In this document: piece by piece, positions 14,901 through 50,233 of the stretch
Layout of the letters: every line of letters starts with the position of its first letter
Position numbering within the stretch: position 1 is the stretch's first letter
NCBI GenBank assembly: GCA_965649115.1
Contig: CBFGJN010000002.1
Coordinates: 987-64,986, forward strand
Direction: 5' to 3'
DNA length: 64,000 bases
Source of the DNA: a candidate division WOR-3 bacterium
GTDB lineage: Bacteria; Hydrothermota; Hydrothermia; LBFQ01; DSFT01
Notes under the pieces: model-generated
Told to the model about the DNA's origin: nothing
Seen by the model: the letters and a program-made list of their open reading frames with translations, nothing else
The model's database searches: none
Program-made: the position numbers and the translations under genes

Positions 14901-14940
14901 TAGTTATTAAAATTTTAAAGTAGATTTAGTTCTAATTTTT

Positions 14941-15012
14941 GCTGTGTCTAGTAATTCTGAAATATAGATTATTTCTTATTTTGCCCGCCCACCCTGAAAA
15001 TAAGGCTTTGCC
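14941..15012 (-). repeat. A-type intergenic repeat module, full copy. Terminus GCTGTGTCTAGTAATTC, then an AT-rich palindromic region, then GCCCGCCCACCC and a short hairpin.
   Basis: Near-identical copies occur at 9518..9582(+), 24747..24824(-), 24901..24976(-), 30578..30650(+), 35838..35914(+), 39718..39790(+), 47419..47470(-) and 49463..49547(-). Confidence 0.8.
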
Positions 15013-15143
15013 CCCCTATAATCCCCCATAAAATCAATAATTTCTTTAAAAATTTTATAAGTTATTGACTATCAATCACTTAACACCATTTGCTAGACAA
15101 AGCATAATTATTTGCCTTGTCTAGTAATTAAGCCTTCCGCTTT

Positions 15144-15262
15144 AAAAAAACCCCAACTTTTGCTTTCGGAGGGGCATAGCTCCCCTTATCCCCATTAAAG
15201 CAATAATTTTCTTGAAATTTTAATTGATTATCAAGGACTTAACATTATTTATTGGACAAAGC
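15144..15262 (+). repeat. B-type intergenic repeat module, full copy. Sequence runs CCCCAACTTTTGCTTT, then a GGGG..CCCC hairpin, then TTGATTATCAA palindrome, ending TTATTGGACAAAGC.
   Basis: Copies or variants occur at 15005..15103(+), 24977..25043(+), 25508..25622(+), 47471..47541(+), 24825..24883(+, short) and 9441..9481(-, partial). Confidence 0.8.
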
Positions 15263-15298
15263 AGCAGGAGGACTTTATTTCACTTTAAAATTTCAAAC

Positions 15299-15871
15299 TT
15301 GAAGGAGAATTTAAGAGCTATTTTTTTATTGCCCATTATAAAGCTTTTTGTTAAGTTAAATATAAATCCTAATTTATTGACGATAATGACCCTCATTTTA
15401 AACTTAATTCCATTTTACTTTTATTCAAATAAAAATTTTTTATTGGGTGCTATCAGTTTAATTTTAATAAATTTATTTGATGCTATGGATGGAGAATTAG
15501 CAAGAATAACTAATAAGACTTCAAAATTAGGAGCTTTTTTAGATTCAAATTTTGATAGAATTTCAGAAGCTTTAATTTTTCTATCACTTATCATAGCTTT
15601 TAAAGAAAATTTTTTAATTCAAATACTTTTAATAATCTGTGGTTTTGGTTCATTTTTAATTAGTTATATAAGAGCTAGGGGTGAGTCATTGGGTGTTCTT
15701 ATTAAGGCAGGTCCTATGGAGAGAGCTGAAAGAATTTTTTTTATAGCGTTAATGACAATTTTTGTAAAATTTATTTTTTTGTTTCTTGTTATTTTCTCAA
15801 TTTTAATTTACATAACGATTATTAGGAGGATTTATGAGGGTTATAAAAAAATGAAGTTAAGTAATTTCTGA
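15299..15871 (+). CDS. CDP-alcohol phosphatidyltransferase (PgsA/PssA-like)
   Basis: Signature DAMDGELARITNKTSKLGAFLDSNFDRISE, i.e. D-G-x2-A-R-x8-G-x3-D-x3-D. The annotated ATG at 15224 lies inside a repeat module. A TTG at 15299 follows the TTTAAAATTTCAAAC box, and a downstream ATG at 15386 is an alternative start. Confidence 0.65.
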   Translation: MKENLRAIFLLPIIKLFVKLNINPNLLTIMTLILNLIPFYFYSNKNFLLGAISLILINLFDAMDGELARITNKTSKLGAFLDSNFDRISEALIFLSLIIAFKENFLIQILLIICGFGSFLISYIRARGESLGVLIKAGPMERAERIFFIALMTIFVKFIFLFLVIFSILIYITIIRRIYEGYKKMKLSNF

Positions 15872-19811: not shown

Positions 19812-19823
19812 CAAGAATAAGGC

Positions 19824-19895
19824 ACTACAACATTGCTTTGTCCAGTAAATAATGTTAAGTAAAAAGCCCCCCGAAGCCGAAATATGGCACTACAA
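19824..19895. repeat. B-module fragment plus GC hairpin flanked by 12-bp direct repeats GGCACTACAACA
   Basis: GGCACTACAACA occurs at 19822 and again at 19884, bracketing a B-terminus fragment (GCTTTGTCCAGTAAATAATGTTAAGT) and a GC hairpin (GCCCCCCGAAGCCGAAATATGGC). Confidence 0.5.
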
Positions 19896-19926
19896 CATAA
19901 TTTATTTACTTTAAAATTTTGAAACT

Positions 19927-23406: not shown

Positions 23407-23780
23407 GGATTTTGGCTATTGATTATGGTAGGAAAAAATGTGGAATAGCTATAACTGATAAAGAAAATAAAATTGTAATTCCTTATGGTATTATCAAAAC
23501 ATCGGAAATTATTCAAAAATTAAAGGAAATTATAAATCAAAAAGAGGTTAAAAAAATTGTAATTGGCCTTCCACTTTCATTAAGTGGCAAGGAACTTGAA
23601 ATTACCAAAGATGTTTATAGTCTTAAAGAAAAAATTGAAAAAGAATTTCATTTAGAAGTGATACTATTTGATGAAAGAATGACAAGTAAGATATTTAAAG
23701 AAAAGAACAACGATGACTTATCAGCTATGATTATATTAGAAAATTATTTAAAATTTTCTAAAATTCAAAAGCTTTCGTAA
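23403..23780 (+). CDS. ruvX: Holliday-junction resolvase-like RuvX/YqgF
   Basis: MRILAIDYGRKKCGIAITD N-terminus. Confidence 0.85.
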   Translation: MRILAIDYGRKKCGIAITDKENKIVIPYGIIKTSEIIQKLKEIINQKEVKKIVIGLPLSLSGKELEITKDVYSLKEKIEKEFHLEVILFDERMTSKIFKEKNNDDLSAMIILENYLKFSKIQKLS

Positions 23781-24717
23781 AACTTGTATTGTCAAAGTAG
23801 ATTTTCAAAATATACAAACCGTTTTTCAATTTTAGTTTTATTTCATGCTCTCCAGGTTTCATAAATCCTATATCTCTTTCTTCTACTTTACTTCCATTTA
23901 TTGAGAAAATCTCGTATCTTAAATACCTTTCATTGATAAGGTTTATTATTAATTTGCCATTTTTTATATCAAACTTATCAAAGGGTAATTTGGCTTTCTC
24001 ATCATTTGAGAGTGGAGTAAATGTTCCACAGGAACCACTTGCTACCCATTTTGTTATTCTTTCAAGGTAGTTGTTCGTTCCAGGATCCACACAATTCCAC
24101 GAAAAACAATGGTCAGTATATACAATTCTGCCGTTTCCATAATTTCCAACCATTAATGTTGGATCATTTGGTCCATTTGTTGGATCTATAATTAGTACGC
24201 TCCACGAGTTACTCCACGAACCTTCAATATCATAATCACCCGAGGTTTCAGCTATATTCAATCCAGATGTTATTGGGTGTAGTGGAGCGAGTGGTGTATA
24301 TTGTTGGCAGCTTGAAGTCCCGCAGTTCCACCAAGCACTTGAAACAGAAATTGAAAAGATAGCTGGTAAAGTGGGAACATTTCCTGCTTGATTTGGTTGA
24401 TTTATCCAATAACCTCCACCCATGAGAACGTAGTTTTGTAAGTTTGTCGATAGGAAGCCTAATGACCATATTGCTTGAATATCTACTAAAACAACATCAT
24501 ATTTACATAGCGAATCTGCACTTATATTTCCAAGGTTATTCACCTGAACTTGATAAACACTAGCACCAAGTGAAGATAACCTACTTGGAGTATCGTAAAG
24601 ATTTGAATAGATATACAGAACCTTTACTCCATTTAGAGCATTTAGGCCAACTTCGGGATTTTTATAATTTCCTTCTGTTCTTCCATCACTATAAAATAAG
24701 AAGTTAAGGATTAGCAT
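23758..24717 (-). CDS. Secreted hypothetical protein with T9SS-type C-terminal sorting domain-like tail
   Basis: The C-terminal ~80 aa beta-rich tail (GKLIINLINERYLRYEIFSINGSKV...LYILKIYF) resembles Por/T9SS C-terminal domains. The start was placed at the Met preceded by TTTAAAATTATTTTT. The track's TTG at 24738 is the alternative. Confidence 0.5.
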   Translation of the reverse strand: MLILNFLFYSDGRTEGNYKNPEVGLNALNGVKVLYIYSNLYDTPSRLSSLGASVYQVQVNNLGNISADSLCKYDVVLVDIQAIWSLGFLSTNLQNYVLMGGGYWINQPNQAGNVPTLPAIFSISVSSAWWNCGTSSCQQYTPLAPLHPITSGLNIAETSGDYDIEGSWSNSWSVLIIDPTNGPNDPTLMVGNYGNGRIVYTDHCFSWNCVDPGTNNYLERITKWVASGSCGTFTPLSNDEKAKLPFDKFDIKNGKLIINLINERYLRYEIFSINGSKVEERDIGFMKPGEHEIKLKLKNGLYILKIYFDNTSFTKAFEF

Positions 24718-24746
24718 AAAAATAATTTTAAAGCACAACTTTTTAC

Positions 24747-25043
24747 TGCTTTGTCTAGTAATTCTAAAAATATGATTATTTCTATATTTTCCCCACCCAC
24801 CCTATATTTAAGCCTTTGGCTTTAAAATACCCATTTTTCGGCAGAGGGGGGCTTTTTACTTAACACTATTTACTAGACAAAGCTACTTTTTACTGATTTT
24901 GCCTTGTCTAAGAATTCTAAAAATATATATTTTACTATATTTTTCCCACCCGCCCTGAAATTAAGCTTTTCCGCTTAAAAATACCCCAACTTTTGCCTAT
25001 AGGGGGCTTTCACCCCCATTAAATCCTATTTATTGGACAAAGC
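24747..25043. repeat. Tandem array of A(-), B(+) short, A(-), B(+) modules filling the spacer between two minus-strand genes
   Basis: Each module was recognised by alignment to the copies listed above. Confidence 0.75.
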
Positions 25044-25095
25044 GGAAAAATAAAACTTTGCTTCATAAATAACCTTTTTTAGGCATTTGGGGGCT

Positions 25096-25485
25096 TTAAT
25101 TTTTGATTTTTTTTCTTATTTCATTCGCTCTTTCTTTTAAACCCATTTTTTCATAAATTTCTGCCATTTTTTTATAAACTTCATTTTCAAGTTTTGAATT
25201 ATAACCATAAGTTTTTTGGATATATTTTATAAGTTCGTTATATACAAGAAGTGTAGTTTCATATTCCTTTTTTTCTTCAAGAGCTTTTGCTAGAAGAAGA
25301 TGGGCATTTATAATCGTATCTGAAATTTCTTTATATCTTGGAACTTTTCTTAAAAAGTTTTTCAAATAGTAAATTGAAGAATCGTAATTTTTTAAGTTAT
25401 AGAAATAAATTGCTTTTTTGTATTCGGAAATATCTATATCCTTTAAATTATTTTGACAGGATAAAAGTAAAATGAAAAAAATCAA
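25096..25485 (-). CDS. TPR-like lipoprotein
   Basis: The annotated N-terminus (to 25584) is translated from a B-type repeat. A TTG at 25485 gives MIFFILLLSCQ with a lipobox. Confidence 0.45.
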   Translation of the reverse strand: MIFFILLLSCQNNLKDIDISEYKKAIYFYNLKNYDSSIYYLKNFLRKVPRYKEISDTIINAHLLLAKALEEKKEYETTLLVYNELIKYIQKTYGYNSKLENEVYKKMAEIYEKMGLKERANEIRKKIKN

Positions 25486-25628
25486 TGTTCTAATGCTGTG
25501 TCCGTATTTCGGCTTTGGGGGGCAAAGCTCCCCATTAAAACCCAGCATAAAATCAAGAATTTCAGAAAATTTTTTATAAATCATTGATTATCAAGCATTT
25601 AACAACATTTATTGGACAAAGCAACATT

Positions 25629-26594
25629 CTAATTAAAAATTCCATTTTCAGTTATATAACCTGTTATAAGATGTTTTGGTGTTATATCAAAAGCATAGTT
25701 TAAAACATTCGCACTTTCAATAGTAATTAAAAAGTTCTTGAATTTTATAACTTCATCTTTTTTTCTCTTTTCTATTATAACTTCTTCTAATTTTGAACTT
25801 TTGTCAATTGTTGATGTTGGGAAAGCTGTCCAAAAAGGAATTTTATAATAATTACATAAAATTGCGATATTTAATGTTCCAATTTTATTTATTAATGTTC
25901 CATCGCTCAAAACTCTATCTGCTCCAACAATTGCTAAATCTATTTCTCCTTTTGACATAATAAAAGCAATAGAATTATCTGTTATTAATTCGTATGGAAT
26001 TTTTAATTTTTCAAGTTCATATATTGTAAGTCTTGAACCTTGTAAATAAGGTCTTGTTTCAGGAACAATAACTTTATTAATTAAATTATTTTCAAATGCT
26101 TTATAGATAATTCCAAGAGCAGTTCCAATTCCCGTTGTTGCTAAAAATCCTGTATTACAATAAGTTAAGACTGAACTTTTCTTTTTGAAAATTTTTAATC
26201 CATTTTGAGCAATTTTAAGGCACCTTTCTTTTTCTTCGTTATCCAAATTTATTACGAATCTGAATAATTCTTCTTGTAAATTTTTAGAATTTAAAATGAT
26301 TTTTTCAATTTCTTTTAAAGTATTAAATAAATTTACAGCTGTTGGTCTTGAATTTTTTAGAATTTCAATAGATTTTAATAATTTTTCTTTATTGTTTTTT
26401 TTCATTGCTTCTATTAAAATAGCATAACTACTTGCAATTGCTATTAATGGTGCCCCTCTTATTGCCATATTTTTTATTAAATTTGACATTTGATAAGCAC
26501 TTTTAACCTCTATGTAAATTTCATTAAATGGAAGTTTTCTTTGGTCTAAAATAAATAATTTGTTATTTTCAAAAATTAATGGTTTTGGTATCAT
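25629..26594 (-). CDS. mtnA: Methylthioribose-1-phosphate isomerase / eIF-2B alpha-beta-delta family
   Basis: Family-typical core (IRGAPLIAIA, GADRV..DG...NKIGT). Confidence 0.75.
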   Translation of the reverse strand: MIPKPLIFENNKLFILDQRKLPFNEIYIEVKSAYQMSNLIKNMAIRGAPLIAIASSYAILIEAMKKNNKEKLLKSIEILKNSRPTAVNLFNTLKEIEKIILNSKNLQEELFRFVINLDNEEKERCLKIAQNGLKIFKKKSSVLTYCNTGFLATTGIGTALGIIYKAFENNLINKVIVPETRPYLQGSRLTIYELEKLKIPYELITDNSIAFIMSKGEIDLAIVGADRVLSDGTLINKIGTLNIAILCNYYKIPFWTAFPTSTIDKSSKLEEVIIEKRKKDEVIKFKNFLITIESANVLNYAFDITPKHLITGYITENGIFN

Positions 26595-35673: not shown

Positions 35674-35949
35674 TATCCGTTAGCCATTAATTTTATTTTT
35701 GCTTATAAATATCTTTCTTTTTTGTATTCTCTCAAAACCCCCCAAAGCAAAAGAATAGAGTATTTTAGGGCAGGTGGGTAAATATAGAAGACAACTGCAA
35801 CGATTGTTTTAATGGGGGGATTATAGGGCGAAGTTTTAAGCCATAGGCTTATTTTCAGGGTGGGCAGGGAAAAATATAGAAAAATATATATTTTTAGAAT
35901 TACTAGACACAGCAGAGGACAAATTCTTAAAGCTTTAAACTTTTCAGAT

Positions 35950-38256
35950 ATGAAAATAAAGAAAGTTGCTGTTCTTGGAGCTGGGACAATGGGTTCTCAA
36001 ATAGCTGCCCATTTAGCAAATAATGGATTAGAAGTTCTTCTTCTTGATTTAAATAAGGAAATAGCTAAAAATGGTTTAAAAAGAGCATTAGAAATAAATC
36101 CACCTGCATTTATGGATAAAGAATTTAAAAATTTTATAAAAATTGGAGGATTTGATAGTGATTTTGAATCAATAAAAGATGCTGATTGGATAATTGAGGC
36201 AGTTGTTGAGAAACTTGAAGTGAAAAGAGAAATTTTTGATAAGGTTGAAAAATATAGAAAAAACAATAGTATTGTTTCTTCAAATACTTCTGGAATTCCG
36301 ATAAAATTACTTGCTGAAAATAGAAGCGATAACTTTAAAGAGTACTTTTTGGGGACACACTTCTTCAATCCTCCAAGATATATGAAACTACTTGAAATTA
36401 TACCAACTGAATGGACAAAAAAAGAAGTTATTGAAGAAATAAAAGAATTTTGTGAAGATGTTCTTGGTAAAGGAATTGTTTTTTCAAAAGATACCCCAAA
36501 TTTTATTGCTAATAGAATAGGGACATTTTCAATAATGATGGTTTTCAAACTTGTAGAAGAAATGGATTTAAAAATTGAAGAAGTAGATTATTTAACTGGT
36601 GAATTAATTGGAAGACCAAGAACAGGAACATTTAGGTTGGCTGATTTGGTTGGTATTGATGTTTTGTATAATGTTGCAAAGAATTTAGAAGTTCTTTTAA
36701 TTAATGATGAATTTAAAGATGTATTTAAAATCCCTCAATTTCTTAATGAGATGGTAAATAGAAATTTAATTGGTGATAAAGTGAAAGCGGGATTCTATAA
36801 GAGAGAAAATAATAAGCGTTTCGTTATTGATTTAAAAACACTTGAATATAGAGAGGTGCTTAATGTTAATATTCCTGAATTTTTCCAAATTCAAAGTATG
36901 GAAAATTTAGAAGATAGGATAAAAGCAATTTTCAGTTTAAATACAAAACATGCTGAATTTCTTAAAAAATTATTAACTTCAATTCTGGTTTATAGTGTAA
37001 ATAGAGTTGGTGAAATTGCTGATGATATTGTTAATATAGACAATGCATTAAAGTGGGGATTTAATTGGAAATTGGGTCCATTTGAAACAATTGATATTAT
37101 TTCAAAAGAAAATTTTGAAAAATTGGTTAATTTTTATAGTTTTCCATTAAATAAAGAAATTCCTACAAAGTTTTATAAAGATAAAATGTTTTACGATTAT
37201 AATTCAAAAACTTATAAACCAATTGAAAGAAGAAAAGAAATTATTGTAATTTCTGAACTAAAAAGGGAAAATAAAGTTATTCTTGAAAATTCAGAAGCAA
37301 GTTTAATTGATTTAAATGATGGTGTTTTATTATTAGAATTTCATTCAAAAGCTAATACTATTGGTATAGGGACAATTCAAATGTTAAATAGTGCTTTGGA
37401 TATTCTTGAAAAAGAAAAAAAATTTATTGGACTTGTAATAACAAATGATGATGAAAGAAACTTTTCGGCAGGTGCAAATTTAGGTCTAATTGCTATGTCA
37501 ATTGGAGAAGGTGCATTTGATGAAATTGAGAGAGCAGTTTTAAACTTCCAAAAAGTTAATATGAGAATGAAGTACTTTAAAAAGCCAATTGTTGCAGGAG
37601 CATTCGGAGTAGCTGTCGGTGGCGGATGCGAATTATTATTACATACTCATAGAATTGTTGCTCATAGTGAATTATATACGGGACTTGTTGAGGTTGGAGT
37701 TGGGCTTATTCCCGCAGGTGGAGGCACTAAGGAATTTACAATTAGAGCATTAAATTATCCTCAAAATGTTGAAAATTATGATGTTTTACCAATTTTTAGA
37801 TTATATCTTGAATATATTGGAACAGCAAAAGTTAGCTCTTCTGCTTATGAAGCAAAGAATATGGGTATTTTAAGAGATGGGGATATTATTATTTCAAATA
37901 GAGATTTTCTAACATGTTATGCTAAGAACTTGGTTATTGGATTATATAATGCTGGATTTAAAGGATTTTATGGTCCTAAAAGAGTTAGAATGCTTGGTTG
38001 GGATGGTTATAGTGCAGTCTTAGCAAGCTTAATAAATTTAAAAAGAGGAAACTTTATAACTGAACATGATGCATTTATTATTGAAAAAATTGCTTATGTT
38101 ATGACAGGAGGACCAGATATTGCTCCTGGTACAATTTTTGATGAATGGCAAATTCTTGAAAATGAAAAGAAGGTTTTTATTGAGCTCGTTAAACATCCCA
38201 AAACCCAAGAAAGAATTTTCTACTTCTTAAAAAATAGGAAACCATTAAGAAATTAA
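35950..38256 (+). CDS. Bifunctional 3-hydroxyacyl-CoA dehydrogenase / enoyl-CoA hydratase (FadN-type order, dehydrogenase N-terminal)
   Basis: N-terminal Rossmann VAVLGAGTMGSQIA and C-terminal crotonase region NFSAGANLG...GGGCELLL. The start was moved to the ATG after a CTTTAAACTTTTCAGAT box because the track start lies in an A-repeat. Confidence 0.85.
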   Translation: MKIKKVAVLGAGTMGSQIAAHLANNGLEVLLLDLNKEIAKNGLKRALEINPPAFMDKEFKNFIKIGGFDSDFESIKDADWIIEAVVEKLEVKREIFDKVEKYRKNNSIVSSNTSGIPIKLLAENRSDNFKEYFLGTHFFNPPRYMKLLEIIPTEWTKKEVIEEIKEFCEDVLGKGIVFSKDTPNFIANRIGTFSIMMVFKLVEEMDLKIEEVDYLTGELIGRPRTGTFRLADLVGIDVLYNVAKNLEVLLINDEFKDVFKIPQFLNEMVNRNLIGDKVKAGFYKRENNKRFVIDLKTLEYREVLNVNIPEFFQIQSMENLEDRIKAIFSLNTKHAEFLKKLLTSILVYSVNRVGEIADDIVNIDNALKWGFNWKLGPFETIDIISKENFEKLVNFYSFPLNKEIPTKFYKDKMFYDYNSKTYKPIERRKEIIVISELKRENKVILENSEASLIDLNDGVLLLEFHSKANTIGIGTIQMLNSALDILEKEKKFIGLVITNDDERNFSAGANLGLIAMSIGEGAFDEIERAVLNFQKVNMRMKYFKKPIVAGAFGVAVGGGCELLLHTHRIVAHSELYTGLVEVGVGLIPAGGGTKEFTIRALNYPQNVENYDVLPIFRLYLEYIGTAKVSSSAYEAKNMGILRDGDIIISNRDFLTCYAKNLVIGLYNAGFKGFYGPKRVRMLGWDGYSAVLASLINLKRGNFITEHDAFIIEKIAYVMTGGPDIAPGTIFDEWQILENEKKVFIELVKHPKTQERIFYFLKNRKPLRN

Positions 38257-42032: not shown

Positions 42033-43382
42033 TCAAGGCTTCGCCTTTAAAAAACCCCATCTATTGAAAGCAAACTTTTCCTTTATAAATTTATAAATTA
42101 AAAAGTTAGAAATGAGACCATGTCTTTTAGCTATTTCATATGCTCTTTTTTCCCAGCCTTTTATGATATATTTAGCAACTAAATCTTGTTTTCTGTGCTT
42201 AACAATTAGTTTTAAATCCTTATTTAAAATTGCTAAAAATGTAGGTTTTTTAATTTGTAAAATGAAATTTTTGGCTTCTTTTAATTTCCCTTCAATATAA
42301 AGAGCAAATGCTTTTGCCAACTTATAGTTATCATCATCAAATTCTCTATTTACAATATCAATTTCTATGGTTTTTATTTCCAATATAAATCTCAAGTGAT
42401 TCCCTTTTAAAAAGTAAGACAAAGCTTTTAAAATTTTAAAATAAATACTATCGTCTGAAATTCTTGAAAATTCTTCAAAATTTCCTAAGTGGAATTTTAG
42501 TTTTTCATCTTTAAATAATAAATGTGCTTTTTTAATATGTCCTAAACTTACAAGAATAGAATATATTAGTTTTGAAAGCTCACTATCTTTTAAATTTTTA
42601 TATGATTTAATCCACCTTGAAAAAATTGGAAATAGTTTCTTATAAACTTCACTATCATAATAAAGACTATTTAAAATCAATAATAAAATTGGTTTTTTAA
42701 TTTGCTCTGGGAGTTTTAAAAATTCATTTAAATGCCTTTTAAAAATTTTTTTTATTTCATTATAATTACCAGATGCTCTTAAAAACATAATTTCAGGAAT
42801 AAATAAACTATAATATGTTAAAAGAAATTTTCTTTTTAATGCTAATTCTTTGTATTCCCTTATTTTATAAATCATTTCCTTGGTTGTTATTAAAATTGTT
42901 TTAGAATGGAAAATTTTTGAATAAATATAAGAAAATTTATAAACTACTAGATTGATGGGCAGTAAATTATCAGGAAGTTTCAATAAAATATCATAATCTT
43001 TTTCACTTGAAGGAATAAAGTGTTTTAAAAATTTTTTTAGATTTTTCAAATCATTTTTTTCAAATAAATAATGAACAAGTTGATTTATCTGCTTATTTTC
43101 TTTAAATCCATAAATATCATAAAGTGAAAGTTTAGAATAAATAGTAGAAATTGGCATTTTAAAAATTTTTGACAAATCTTTTAGATTTAAAAATGGGTTT
43201 TTCTCAAAGTAAATATAAATTTTATATGCTTCTTTGTCATATTCAAAAAAATTATTCTTTCTTTTAATTCTTGAAATTGTTGCTGGACTTAAATTTAAAA
43301 TTCTTGATATTTCTCTTATTTTAATCCCCTTTTTTATCATTTCATAAGCTTTAAACTTCTTTATAATATCGGTTTGTTTCAT
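42033..43382 (-). CDS. HTH-domain protein with long helical/TPR-like C-terminal region
   Basis: N-terminal HTH (IREISRILNLSPATISRIKRK). The start was set at the Met preceded by TTTATAATTTTCAATATT. Confidence 0.4.
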   Translation of the reverse strand: MKQTDIIKKFKAYEMIKKGIKIREISRILNLSPATISRIKRKNNFFEYDKEAYKIYIYFEKNPFLNLKDLSKIFKMPISTIYSKLSLYDIYGFKENKQINQLVHYLFEKNDLKNLKKFLKHFIPSSEKDYDILLKLPDNLLPINLVVYKFSYIYSKIFHSKTILITTKEMIYKIREYKELALKRKFLLTYYSLFIPEIMFLRASGNYNEIKKIFKRHLNEFLKLPEQIKKPILLLILNSLYYDSEVYKKLFPIFSRWIKSYKNLKDSELSKLIYSILVSLGHIKKAHLLFKDEKLKFHLGNFEEFSRISDDSIYFKILKALSYFLKGNHLRFILEIKTIEIDIVNREFDDDNYKLAKAFALYIEGKLKEAKNFILQIKKPTFLAILNKDLKLIVKHRKQDLVAKYIIKGWEKRAYEIAKRHGLISNFLIYKFIKEKFAFNRWGFLKAKP

Positions 43383-49414: not shown

Positions 49415-49654
49415 TTTTTAACCTCCTTTTAAAGATTGAAAATTTTAAAGGACTTAAATTTTGCTGTGTCTAAAAATTATGAAAAATATATTTTTCTATA
49501 TTTCTCCGAACCACCCTGAAATCAAGCCTTAGGCTTTAAAATGCCCATATTTTCCGCTTTGGAGGTCAAAGCCACCCTAAAAACTATAATTTCAAAAAAT
49601 TTTTCGGAAATTAAAGCTAACTTTTTTATTTTAAGCTTTAAACTTTTAGCGTTT

Positions 49655-50233
49655 ATGAAGGTTGAAAATTTACTAAAATTTTTAAAAGAAAAAAGAGAGC
49701 AAATTATATTTGCTTTTGGCATTGTTCTCATAGTTATTATAATTTTGATTTATAATAATTTATCAAGTAAAAGGGTAAGTGCTGATAGTCAAGTTGCTTT
49801 CATTCAGGGTTTTTATGGAATTCAGTTTGGTGATACATCAAATGCTCCAAAAATTTTAATGGAACTTTATTCAAGAAATAAAAGTAATTTTATTGGTTTT
49901 TGGTCTGGTCTTGTTCTTGCTGATTATTATTATAAGTTTGAAAAAAAGGATAATTCTTATTCAATTTTAAAGACGATAAAACCATTTGATGAAATTGGTA
50001 AAACCGCATATAAAATTTTAGAAGCAAATTTAAAGTCTTCTCCTTCAAGTTTGAATATAAAAACTGACTTTAAATCCATAAATAATTATGTTGCTTATAG
50101 AAAGGCCAAAATGCTCCTTGCCAAAGGTGATAAAACGGAAGCTATTAGGTTATTTAAAGAAATATCAAAAGGCAATGATATTTTCTCTGAAATGGCAAAG
50201 GAAGAACTAAGGGCATTAGGAGAGAAGTTATGA
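49655..50233 (+). CDS. Membrane-anchored TPR-like protein
   Basis: The track ORF begins inside a repeat. The start was set at the ATG after an AGCTTTAAACTTTTAGCGTTT box. One TM segment, then a helical repeat region. Confidence 0.45.
   Translation: MKVENLLKFLKEKREQIIFAFGIVLIVIIILIYNNLSSKRVSADSQVAFIQGFYGIQFGDTSNAPKILMELYSRNKSNFIGFWSGLVLADYYYKFEKKDNSYSILKTIKPFDEIGKTAYKILEANLKSSPSSLNIKTDFKSINNYVAYRKAKMLLAKGDKTEAIRLFKEISKGNDIFSEMAKEELRALGEKL

What the first reader, a model, noticed from the sequence alone, without database searches (positions are those of the whole stretch)
24739..25095. Tandem A-B-A-B repeat array between two co-directional genes, with the next gene's annotated N-terminus translated from a repeat
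This 357-bp spacer holds A(-) at 24747..24824, a shortened B(+) at 24825..24883, a second A(-) at 24901..24976 and a full B(+) at 24977..25043. The two A copies differ by substitutions such as TAGACAAAGC versus TAGACAAGGC and CCCACCCACCC versus CCCACCCGCCC. This suggests old duplications rather than recent assembly artefacts. The nearby ORF 25096..25584 has its first 33 codons inside a B module at 25508..25622 (the peptide LGFNGELCPPKPKYG comes from the hairpin). This shows that repeat copies inflate ORF predictions. A TTG at 25485 gives a clean lipoprotein signal MIFFILLLSCQ.
Basis: seen in the sequence. Interest (0 to 1): 0.6.

Follow-up and report, generated by a model that had tools for sequence, protein, structure and literature searches.

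The report
Stacked miniature transposons upstream of a promoter
The "A-B-A-B array" is two separately inserted copies of a small non-coding transposon (a MITE derived from an IS903-like insertion sequence) in a hot-spring WOR-3/Hydrothermia bacterium, and a third copy landed inside the start of the neighbouring lipoprotein gene and cut off its original start codon.

Summary
The repeats are real and at the stated coordinates. They are not a tandem duplication, and "A(-)" and "B(+)" are not separate modules. Each A+B pair is one element bounded by about 15-nt terminal inverted repeats (TGCTKTGTCYARTAA).

- **E1** (24747-24884) is flanked by a perfect 9-bp target-site duplication, ACTTTTTAC.
- **E2** (24900-25044) is an older copy. 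A decayed fragment sits at 25051-25097.
- **E1 and E2 are not close relatives.** They share 74% identity, and each ranks only 75th or 44th among the other's relatives.
- **The array is not an assembly artefact.** It is base-identical in two other assemblies.

In about 0.95 Mb of related DNA, 41 of 159 scorable complete copies have perfect 9/9 flanks (chance 6e-5 each).

The autonomous parent was found. It is 1039-1055 bp, has the same ends and perfect 9-bp duplications, and encodes a 300-aa IS5-family transposase matching the same NCBIfam model as IS903B.

The third copy, E13 (25494-25623), sits inside the 5' end of the lipoprotein gene. A syntenic relative has the empty site and the native start MELSIRKLVLLILLLSC, which overlaps the end of mtnA. 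So the 162-aa N-terminus is transposon-derived, but TTG 25485 is not proven to be the start.

Family-wide, new copies stack head-to-tail exactly 9 nt from resident ends. One end sits 12-13 or 19-20 nt upstream of a promoter-like motif, CTTTAAAATTTT.

The parts
24715..24717 (-). Probable true start codon (ATG) of the downstream gene 23758..24717. The product has a weak match to a T9SS C-terminal sorting domain.
   Evidence: It lies 7 nt after the TTTAAAAT motif. The L002 gene call starts here. Pfam Por_Secre_tail, E = 0.004.
24725..24733 (-). Promoter-like motif C-TTTAAAAT, a -10-like element, for gene 23758..24717.
   Evidence: The same motif lies 6-11 nt before many start codons and before both tRNA genes of the window. 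Function is inferred, not shown.
24738..24746 (.). Target-site duplication of E1, copy 1 (ACTTTTTAC).
   Evidence: 9/9 identical to 24885-24893. The chance of a 9/9 match is 6e-5.
24747..24884 (-). MITE copy E1 (138 bp), the younger insertion. Its IRR-type ('A') end is at 24747 and its IRL-type ('B') end at 24884. It is an internal-deletion derivative of the 204-nt consensus.
   Evidence: 14-nt perfect terminal inverted repeat (I5). Perfect TSD. Its best relatives are elsewhere, at 85-89% identity.
24885..24893 (.). Target-site duplication of E1, copy 2 (ACTTTTTAC).
24900..25044 (-). MITE copy E2 (145 bp), the older insertion, head-to-tail with E1. No target-site duplication is recognisable.
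   Evidence: Termini were found; flanks match 3/9. Before E1 arrived, its IRR end lay exactly 20 nt from TTTAAAAT. This is read from the sequence and matches the family rule.
25051..25097 (-). Decayed fragment of a third, oldest copy (hairpin modules only). It runs up to the stop codon of the lipoprotein gene.
   Evidence: 72% identical to 24809-24855 (D3).
25096..25584 (-). TPR lipoprotein gene as the maximal ORF. Candidate starts are ATG 25584, ATG 25548 and TTG 25485. The lipobox LLSC follows.
   Evidence: weak TPR hits. The L042 ortholog begins MELSIRKLVLLILLLSCQ. dN/dS is 0.08.
25485..25493 (.). Target-site duplication of E13, copy 1 (ATGTTCTAA).
   Evidence: 7/9 match with 25624-25632. 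L042 has a single copy, ATTAGAAAAT on the gene strand.
25494..25623 (-). MITE copy E13 (130 bp), inserted inside the 5' end of the lipoprotein coding sequence, within the mtnA-lipoprotein operon.
   Evidence: Both termini are present. It is absent, precisely, from the syntenic contig L042. It is present in L001 and L002.
25624..25632 (.). Target-site duplication of E13, copy 2 (ACATTCTAA). It overlaps the mtnA stop codon.
25643..25645 (-). Ancestral start codon of the lipoprotein gene. It now heads a 23-codon ORF that runs into E13 and stops at 25576-25574.
   Evidence: Comparison with L042; frame 2 of E13.
24657..24665 (.). Site (GATTTTTAT) where assembly L001 carries an additional element end inside the 5' part of gene 23758..24717. 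This is a polymorphic insertion, or possibly a contig-end chimera.
   Evidence: The last 88 nt of L001 are an IRL-type element end abutting this 9-mer.

Best explanation
The spacer holds stacked copies of a miniature inverted-repeat transposable element (MITE). The host is an AT-rich (27% GC) bacterium of the WOR-3 / Candidatus Hydrothermia lineage.

**The element.** It is non-coding. The consensus is 204 nt and many copies are internal-deletion derivatives of 120-180 nt. It ends in about 15-nt inverted repeats and makes a 9-bp target duplication. It is moved in trans by the DDE transposase of a 1039-1055-bp insertion sequence of the IS5 family, of the IS903 type. The 'B' end of the MITE is that insertion sequence's left end (IRL). 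The 'A' end is its right end (IRR).

**History of the array (inferred from the sequence).**
1. An old copy decayed to the fragment at 25051-25097.
2. E2 inserted with its IRR end 20 nt upstream of the promoter-like motif of gene 23758..24717.
3. E1 later inserted into that 20-nt gap, duplicating ACTTTTTAC.

**E13.** A further copy inserted into the first codons of the lipoprotein gene, which had been translationally coupled to mtnA. The gene must now be translated from a start inside or just past the element.

**Shown:** inverted repeats, target duplications, an empty site, an autonomous partner, and independence of E1 and E2.

**Inferred:** that the motif is a promoter, the order of insertions, and which start codon is used.
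For: **Inverted repeats.** 14-15 nt at the element ends (I5).

**Target duplications.**
- 8 of 14 complete copies in the window and in a related MAG have perfect 9/9 flanks; one more has 7/9. The null probability is 6e-5 for 9/9.
- In 0.95 Mb of related DNA there are 533 termini and 162 complete copies. 159 of these have scorable flanks: 41 match 9/9, 12 match 8/9 and 13 match 7/9.

**Mobility.**
- The syntenic contig L042 (~91% nt identity) lacks E13 exactly and has one copy of the target.
- L001 has an extra copy end at 24657.

**Parent insertion sequence.**
- L168 5933-6987: 1055 bp, TSD GTAAGGCAA 9/9, 300-aa transposase P0124.
- L169 5944-6982: 1039 bp, TSD AAGCTTTAT 9/9.
- L143: a decayed copy.
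- The first ~27 nt (IRL) and last ~19 nt (IRR) match the MITE's B and A ends.

**Transposase classification.**
- Pfam PF13737 + PF01609.
- NCBIfam NF033579, 238 bits against a cut-off of 140. IS903B transposase hits the same model at 352 bits.
- BLASTP against IS903B: 27% identity, E = 6e-33, with the DDE and Y-2-R-3-E-6-K residues aligned.
- The IS903B inverted repeat GGCTTTGTTGAATAAATC (1057-bp element) matches TGCTTTGTCCAATAAATG at 14 of 18 positions.

**Independence of E1 and E2.** 73.6% identity. E2 ranks 75th of 229 hits for E1, and E1 ranks 44th of 210 for E2.

**Not an artefact.** The array is identical in L001 and L002.
Against: - No transposase gene of this type lies in the 64-kb window or in the ~60 kb fetched from the closest MAG (tblastn). 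Whether the window's own genome still has an active parent is therefore unknown.
- E2 has no recognisable target duplication (3/9).
- The gap between E1 and E2 is 15 nt, not the family-typical 9 nt.
- The terminal base is T, where IS903-group elements have G.
- L042 also lacks window 24699-25094. That includes the promoter and the first six codons of the next gene. It is therefore not a clean empty site for E1 and E2, and could be a deletion or an assembly collapse.
Confidence: 0.93

Rival explanations
1. Local tandem duplication of an A-B unit. One ancestral unit was duplicated in place and the copies then diverged.
For: The two units lie head-to-tail in the same orientation. They share ACTTTTTACTG just upstream of each A part (D9).
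Against: - The shared 9-mer flanks E1 on both sides, as a target duplication does.
- E1 and E2 are only 73.6% identical, while each has dozens of closer relatives elsewhere, up to 89%.
- Across the family, the 9-nt spacer between abutting copies matches the far flank of only one neighbour in 17 of 26 evaluable cases and of both in 2. Unequal crossing-over would predict both.
Confidence: 0.03
2. Assembly artefact: a collapsed or mis-joined repeat.
For: Repeats of this family often end contigs in related MAGs. Both L001 and L002 end within about 150 nt of the array.
Against: The whole interval 24657-25640 is base-identical in three assemblies apart from an N-run in L001. The two units differ enough (26%) not to collapse.
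Confidence: 0.01
3. The elements are domesticated promoter modules, not merely selfish insertions. The IRR ('A') half would supply an AT-rich upstream element, a -35-like TAGACA/TGGACA, or read-out transcription from an internal promoter-like site. Orientation and spacing would then be kept by selection.
For: - IRR-type ends face the CTTTAAAATTTT motif at 12-13 or 19-20 nt in 116 of 238 non-abutting non-IRL-type ends (mostly IRR-type). IRL-type ends show the motif in only 23 of 158, with a flat offset distribution.
- The 204-nt consensus carries cTTATaAAAATTT 43-58 nt from the IRL end. That is the position of the transposase promoter in the parent element.
- In the published analogue MITEAba12, outward promoters give transcripts (PMC6382973).
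Against: - With a 12-nt offset, TGGACA sits 19 nt from TAAAAT. With a 20-nt offset it sits 27 nt away, which is too far for a -35 (read).
- Half of the copies with intact target duplications, presumably recent, are already at exactly 20 nt. That points to target choice rather than slow selection.
- No expression data exist.
Confidence: 0.3
4. REP/BIME-like or BOX-like structured intergenic repeats, or a small-RNA gene family, that are not transposase-mobilised.
For: - GC-rich hairpins stand out in an AT-rich genome.
- The small hairpin AAGCC-TTC-GGCTT has a compensated variant, AAGGC-TTC-GCCTT, in several copies.
- The modular make-up recalls BOX elements.
Against: - The elements have 9-bp target duplications, terminal inverted repeats and a transposase-encoding parent with the same ends.
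- There is no Rfam family at gathering score.
- No terminator-like sites were found.
Confidence: 0.02

Closest known systems
MITEAba12 and its parent ISAba12 (Acinetobacter; PMC6382973)
   Same: - A non-coding MITE mobilised by an IS5-family element of about 1040 bp.
- 9-bp target duplications, seen on about 40% of copies.
- AT-rich targets.
- Similar termini: GGCTTTGTTGCAyAAA there, TGCTTTGTCCAATAAA here.
- Outward-facing promoter sequences.
- Occasional fusion to the 5' end of neighbouring genes.
   Different: - The host phylum is WOR-3/Hydrothermia.
- The consensus is 204 nt with many deletion derivatives, against a uniform 113 bp.
- The interior carries GC-rich hairpins.
- Density is far higher, at about 17 sites in 64 kb.
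- Copies stack strictly head-to-tail, and one end sits at fixed distances from a promoter-like motif. The passages read describe neither for MITEAba12.
IS903 / IS903B (IS5 family)
   Same: - The parent element is 1039-1055 bp; IS903B is 1057 bp.
- It has a single transposase ORF.
- It makes a 9-bp target duplication.
- Its transposase hits the same NCBIfam model, NF033579.
- The terminal repeat matches at 14 of 18 positions.
   Different: - The transposases share only 27% identity.
- The terminal base is T, not G.
- The transposase gene follows the host's CTTTAAAATTTT motif with almost no leader.
Correia elements (Neisseria) and pneumococcal BOX/RUP elements
   Same: - Abundant small intergenic repeats that sit next to genes.
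- They can create promoters or alter transcripts.
- BOX elements are modular. (From general knowledge.)
   Different: - Correia elements duplicate TA.
- BOX elements have no terminal inverted repeats or target duplication.
- Neither has IS903-type ends.
Insertion next to an element's own ends, as described for IS30 and IS911 (from general knowledge; not checked in a paper here)
   Same: New copies land immediately beside a resident terminal repeat and give head-to-tail arrangements.
   Different: - Those are IS30- and IS3-family elements that use circular or dimer intermediates with 2-3-bp junctions.
- Here the spacer is the 9-bp (sometimes 8-bp) target duplication of an IS5-family element.

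Membership tests
Bacterial MITE (IS-derived non-autonomous transposon) | Short (<300 bp) and without a transposase gene | tested here: met
   Copies are 63-256 bp with a median of 201 bp; the consensus is 204 nt. E13 has stop codons in all three frames of the gene strand, though the lipoprotein frame stays open over the last 31 codons.
Bacterial MITE (IS-derived non-autonomous transposon) | Terminal inverted repeats | tested here: met
   14-15 nt repeats, TGCTKTGTCYARTAA (I5). The predicted fold is dominated by pairing of the two ends.
Bacterial MITE (IS-derived non-autonomous transposon) | Target-site duplication of fixed length | tested here: met
   The duplication is 9 bp. It is perfect in 8 of 14 copies and in 41 of 159. 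The null probability is 6e-5.
Bacterial MITE (IS-derived non-autonomous transposon) | Ends shared with an autonomous element that encodes a transposase | tested here: met
   IS copies in L168, L169, L170 and L143 share ~27 nt (IRL) and ~19 nt (IRR) with the MITE ends.
Bacterial MITE (IS-derived non-autonomous transposon) | Presence/absence polymorphism with an empty site | tested here: met
   E13 is absent from syntenic L042, which has a single copy of the target. L001 has an extra end at 24657. For E1 and E2 themselves no clean empty site was found.
IS5 family, IS903-type (applies to the parent element) | DDE transposase of the IS5/IS903 type | tested here: met
   PF13737 + PF01609. NF033579 at 238 bits, and IS903B hits the same model at 352 bits. 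The DDE and YREK residues align.
IS5 family, IS903-type (applies to the parent element) | About 1.05 kb with one ORF and a 9-bp target duplication | tested here: met
   1055 bp and 1039 bp, each with a perfect 9-bp duplication.
IS5 family, IS903-type (applies to the parent element) | Terminal repeat beginning GGC, as in IS903 and the ISAba12 relatives | tested here: not met
   The ends begin TGC. Otherwise 14 of 18 positions match the IS903B repeat; the ISAba12-type ends are listed. That GGC is a defining feature is my recollection, not a tested rule.
IS5 family, IS903-type (applies to the parent element) | An active parent in the same genome as the window | not testable with these tools
   None was found in the window or in the fetched loci of the related MAG. 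The rest of the genome could not be read.
REP/BIME (RAYT-mobilised palindromes) | 20-40-nt imperfect palindromes without target duplication, associated with a RAYT gene | tested here: not met
   The elements are 120-204 nt with 9-bp duplications and a DDE parent.
Correia / CREE elements | TA target duplication and 26-nt terminal repeats | tested here: not met
   The duplication is 9 bp of varied sequence.

The most novel reading that the evidence does not exclude
The IS/MITE family chooses its targets by position and orientation. It does so in two linked ways.

**Stacking on resident ends.** New copies insert so that their 9-bp target abuts the end of a resident copy, and the arrangement is always head-to-tail.
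- All 40 classifiable junctions with 8-9-nt spacing are IRR-IRL. None is IRR-IRR or IRL-IRL.

**Fixed distance from a promoter-like motif.** The IRR end comes to lie 19-20 nt (or 12-13 nt) upstream of a leaderless-type promoter motif, CTTTAAAATTTT.
- Half of the copies with intact target duplications are at exactly 20 nt.

If this reading is right, an IS903-type transposase is guided by its own ends, and perhaps by promoter DNA or promoter-bound proteins. It would build promoter-proximal arrays such as the one in this finding and could feed transcription into the downstream gene.
Probability: 0.45. Interest if true: 0.75.

Novelty: new variant of a known kind. Interest (0 to 1): 0.55.

Why it matters
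**For annotation.** At least four ORF starts in this window are mis-predicted because open frames run into these elements (25584, 15224, 35860, 49541). The elements also break MAG assemblies of this lineage.

**For biology.**
- This is the first description I could find of a mobile-element family in the WOR-3/Hydrothermia lineage. No mention turned up in the papers searched.
- One copy removed a gene's start codon, yet the gene is still under purifying selection. That makes it a natural test case for how a start is re-acquired from transposon sequence.

**If the targeting pattern is real.** It would be a bacterial example of insertion at a fixed position and orientation next to promoters and next to the element's own ends. 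That bears on how compact genomes tolerate dense transposon loads.

Tried and rejected
- **Rfam, whole window, gathering thresholds.** Only two tRNAs were found, and no RNA family covers the repeats.
- **Promoter and terminator scan of 24500-25800.** No terminator-like sites. Sigma-70-like hits were no more frequent than in shuffles. The hairpins are therefore not classical terminators.
- **tblastn with IS903B transposase** against the window and the first 46 loci found nothing. A hit came only after the metagenome scan.
- **Genome-collection scan** with AGAATTACTAGACAMAGC. 10 of 39 loci were from one related MAG, and the rest looked like chance matches in unrelated taxa. That is about the number I expected.
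- **P0003 orthologs of mtnA** (L043-L046) are not syntenic and carry no elements, so they gave no empty sites. P0007 could not be looked up.
- **A regex search for the small hairpin** failed. It was replaced by an nhmmer profile.
- **The idea that the IRR end donates a -35 box** fits poorly. The spacer would be 19 nt for the 12-nt class and 27 nt for the 20-nt class.
- **G-quadruplex (GGGTGGGTGGGG) and IHF-site (WATCAANNNNTTR) readings** of internal modules were considered. They were not tested, and both motifs are absent from many copies.
- **The classic IS903 target-choice paper** could not be retrieved.

Full report
**1. What is in the sequence**

The window is very AT-rich (26.8% GC). The interval 24739-25095 lies between two genes on the minus strand:
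- the stop of a small TPR lipoprotein gene at 25096;
- the start of gene 23758..24717/24738, whose product has a weak T9SS sorting-domain hit.

- 24747-24827 against 24900-24980 is 78% identical over 81 nt.
- The second repeat family is 24857-24883, 25017-25043 and 25596-25622.

The same search also found a perfect 14-nt inverted repeat joining the outer ends of the first 'A' and 'B' (24748-24761 with 24870-24883, I5). So each A+B pair is one element with terminal inverted repeats. A window-wide search found the family at about 17 intergenic sites.

**2. It is a transposon: target duplications, empty site, parent element**

I located termini with the pattern TGCTKTGTCYA and compared the 9 nt on either side of each complete copy.

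| Set | Result |
|---|---|
| Window plus a related MAG, 14 complete copies | 8 perfect 9/9, one 7/9 |
| Randomly placed 9-mer pairs in the window (null) | 9/9 with probability 6e-5 |
| About 0.95 Mb of related DNA: 533 termini, 162 complete copies, 159 with scorable flanks | 41 at 9/9, 12 at 8/9, 13 at 7/9 |

E1 (24747-24884) is flanked by ACTTTTTAC on both sides.

*Sources of related DNA.* A genome-collection scan named the lineage: 10 of 39 loci came from one 'Candidatus Hydrothermia' MAG, PSS.bin.3. I judged the rest to be chance matches. Protein names say 'candidate division WOR-3'. A metagenome scan with the B-end pattern hit its 120-locus limit. These contigs have 24-38% GC, with a median of 27%.

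*Parent element.* One metagenome locus (L143) held a decayed DDE transposase between the same termini. Its intact relatives were then fetched with their contigs.
- L168 5933-6987 is a 1055-bp element with the perfect duplication GTAAGGCAA and a 300-aa transposase (P0124).
- L169 5944-6982 is 1039 bp with AAGCTTTAT on both sides.
- The first ~27 nt match the MITE's B end and the last ~19 nt match its A end. Hence B = IRL and A = IRR.

*Transposase classification.*
- It carries PF13737 and PF01609.
- It hits NCBIfam NF033579 at 238 bits. IS903B transposase hits the same model at 352 bits.
- It aligns with IS903B over 293 residues (27% identity, E = 6e-33), including the DDE and Y-2-R-3-E-6-K residues.
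- I had recalled the IS903 terminal repeat from memory and checked it. It is present 100% in IS903B-bearing plasmids. The element there is 1057 bp with GGCTTTGTTGAATAAATC at both ends. That matches the MITE's TGCTTTGTCCAATAAATG at 14 of 18 positions.

*Closest published analogue.* MITEAba12/ISAba12 has 9-bp duplications on about 40% of copies, ends GGCTTTGTTGCAyAAA, AT-rich targets and outward promoters (PMC6382973).

**3. The array is not a duplication and not an artefact**

- E1 and E2 share 73.6% identity.
- Among all related sequences, E2 ranks only 75th of 229 hits for E1, and E1 ranks 44th of 210 for E2. The best relatives of E1, at 85-89%, lie in other contigs.
- The whole stretch 24657-25640 is identical in two other assemblies of the same species, apart from an N-run in L001. 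These are L001 (GCA_039803085.1) and L002 (GCA_965648865.1).
- Both array copies lack a ~55-nt internal module of the 204-nt consensus. So neither 'B' is full-length.
- A third, decayed fragment (25051-25097) abuts the stop codon (D3).

Reading the sequence gives the insertion order.
- Before E1 arrived, E2's IRR end was followed by AAATCA-GTAAAAAGT-TGTGC and then TTTAAAAT. That is 20 nt.
- E1 inserted into this gap and duplicated the middle 9 nt.

**4. The lipoprotein gene**

E13 (25494-25623) keeps both termini. Its flanks are ATGTTCTAA and ACATTCTAA (7/9).

The syntenic metagenome contig L042 (~91% identity) lacks exactly this element and has a single ATTAGAAAAT.
- In L042 the gene begins at an ATG that overlaps the end of mtnA. 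It encodes MELSIRKLVLLILLLSCQ, a textbook lipoprotein signal.
- In the window that ATG (25645-25643) now opens a 23-codon frame that runs into E13 and stops at 25576-25574.

The lipoprotein frame is open backwards through E13 only as far as ATG 25584, with a second ATG at 25548. The three possible starts are:

| Start | Note |
|---|---|
| ATG 25584 | The old short ORF stops 8 nt past it, so termination-reinitiation is conceivable. This is an inference. |
| ATG 25548 | Downstream of the element's internal promoter-like site. |
| TTG 25485 | Used by one public annotation. It leaves no charged n-region. |

The gene is under purifying selection between the window and L042 (dS 0.44, dN 0.035, ratio 0.08). 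It is therefore probably still expressed. Which start is used cannot be decided from sequence.

**5. Patterns across the family, which explain why arrays form**

*Abutting insertion.*
- Of 130 cases where a right terminus is followed by a left terminus, 44 are exactly 9 nt apart and 7 are 8 nt apart.
- In 19 of 26 evaluable cases the 9-mer recurs on the far side of one or both neighbours. It matches one neighbour only in 17 cases and both in 2. So it is usually the target duplication of one neighbour.
- All 40 junctions that could be classified are IRR-IRL, that is, head-to-tail.
- New copies therefore land right beside a resident end, in the same orientation.
- The window's pairs follow the orientation rule, with gaps of 15 nt (E1-E2) and 8 nt (14940-15104 / 15113-15263).

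*Distance to a promoter-like motif.*
- C-TTTAAAAT-TTT lies 6-11 nt before many start codons and before both tRNA genes. This suggests a -10-like element and leaderless or near-leaderless transcripts. It is an inference.
- Termini not classed as IRL-type (mostly IRR-type) face this motif at sharply preferred distances: 12 nt (26 cases), 13 (10), 19 (21) and 20 (59). All other offsets from 0 to 35 together give about 22 cases.
- IRL-type ends show the motif in only 23 of 158 cases, and their offsets are flat.
- Among the 46 orientable unique copies with intact duplications, 23 sit at exactly 20 nt.
- Reconstructed pre-insertion sites show that at least 15 of those 23 inserted beside a resident IRR end that was already at that distance. 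So stacking perpetuates the position.
- The IS copies obey the same rule.

*Caveat.* The metagenome loci were selected for containing an IRL end, and some may be near-duplicates.

**6. Verdict**

- The 'duplication' reading is wrong.
- The 'ORF inflated by a repeat' reading is half the story.

The object is a new MITE/IS family of a well-known kind (IS5 family, IS903-type). Its host is an uncultured thermophilic lineage, and its target behaviour looks unusual.

Noticed in passing
window 2788, 9598, 14919(-), 15284, 16291, 19910, 24732(-), 27941(-), 30662, 41981(-), 47407(-), 49449(-), 53090: The motif C-TTTAAAAT-TTT lies 6-11 nt upstream of start codons and about 8-10 nt upstream of both tRNA genes. 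This suggests a -10-like promoter element with leaderless or near-leaderless mRNAs. A few genes have a GGAGG leader instead. TTTAAAATTTT occurs 18 times against 6.2 expected.
   Followed up: partly
window 15224 (ORF 15224..15871), 35860 (ORF 35860..38256), 49541 (ORF 49541..50233): Three further 'first start after a stop' ORFs begin inside element copies. Their real starts are probably just after the promoter-like motif, for example TTG 15299 and ATG ~35950.
   Followed up: partly
window 19821-19898: A 13-bp direct repeat, GGCACTACAACAT, flanks a short copy (about 19834-19890). It resolves into a 9-bp target duplication (CTACAACAT) plus the last 4 nt (GGCA) of two IRR-type termini. The copy inserted beside an older decayed end and sits 19 nt from the promoter-like motif at 19910.
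   Followed up: yes
L042 7606/7607 and 8499/8500 (window 26127-26276 and 24699-25094): The syntenic metagenome contig lacks 150 nt in frame within mtnA. It also lacks the whole array, together with the promoter and first six codons of the next gene. These are real deletions or assembly collapses. No element of the family was detected anywhere on this 13.7-kb contig.
   Followed up: partly
L001 11034-11121 (window 24657): One assembly of the same species ends in an IRL-type element end abutting GATTTTTAT, inside the first ~20 codons of gene 23758..24717. This looks like a strain-level polymorphic insertion. A contig-end chimera is not excluded.
   Followed up: partly
window 24804-24816, 24961-24974, 42034-42046 and copies in L016, L018, L025, L038: The small internal hairpin AAGCC-TTC-GGCTT has a doubly compensated variant, AAGGC-TTC-GCCTT, in at least three copies, plus G-T wobble versions. 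This may be a single inherited event, so it is weak evidence for a structural constraint.
   Followed up: partly
consensus positions 43-58 from the IRL end; window 25560-25575 (minus strand) in E13: Full-length copies carry cTTATaAAAATTT at the position where the parent IS has its transposase promoter (C-TTTAAAAT-TTTGGGATG). It points towards the IRR end and hence towards the downstream gene.
   Followed up: no
window 24789-24800, 24944-24954 and the IRR-proximal ~100 nt of the IS (L168 6880-6975): G-rich tracts (GGGTGGGTGGGG on the element's IRL-to-IRR strand) stand out in a 27% GC genome. A match to the IHF consensus WATCAANNNNTTR occurs in the internal module of several copies. Neither was tested.
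   Followed up: no
L169 1296-2023 and 2024-3643: On a related contig, an IS1-type element (InsA-like zinc ribbon plus DDE_Tnp_IS1) sits beside two copies and one fragment of the IS903-type element. This looks like a small transposon cluster.
   Followed up: no
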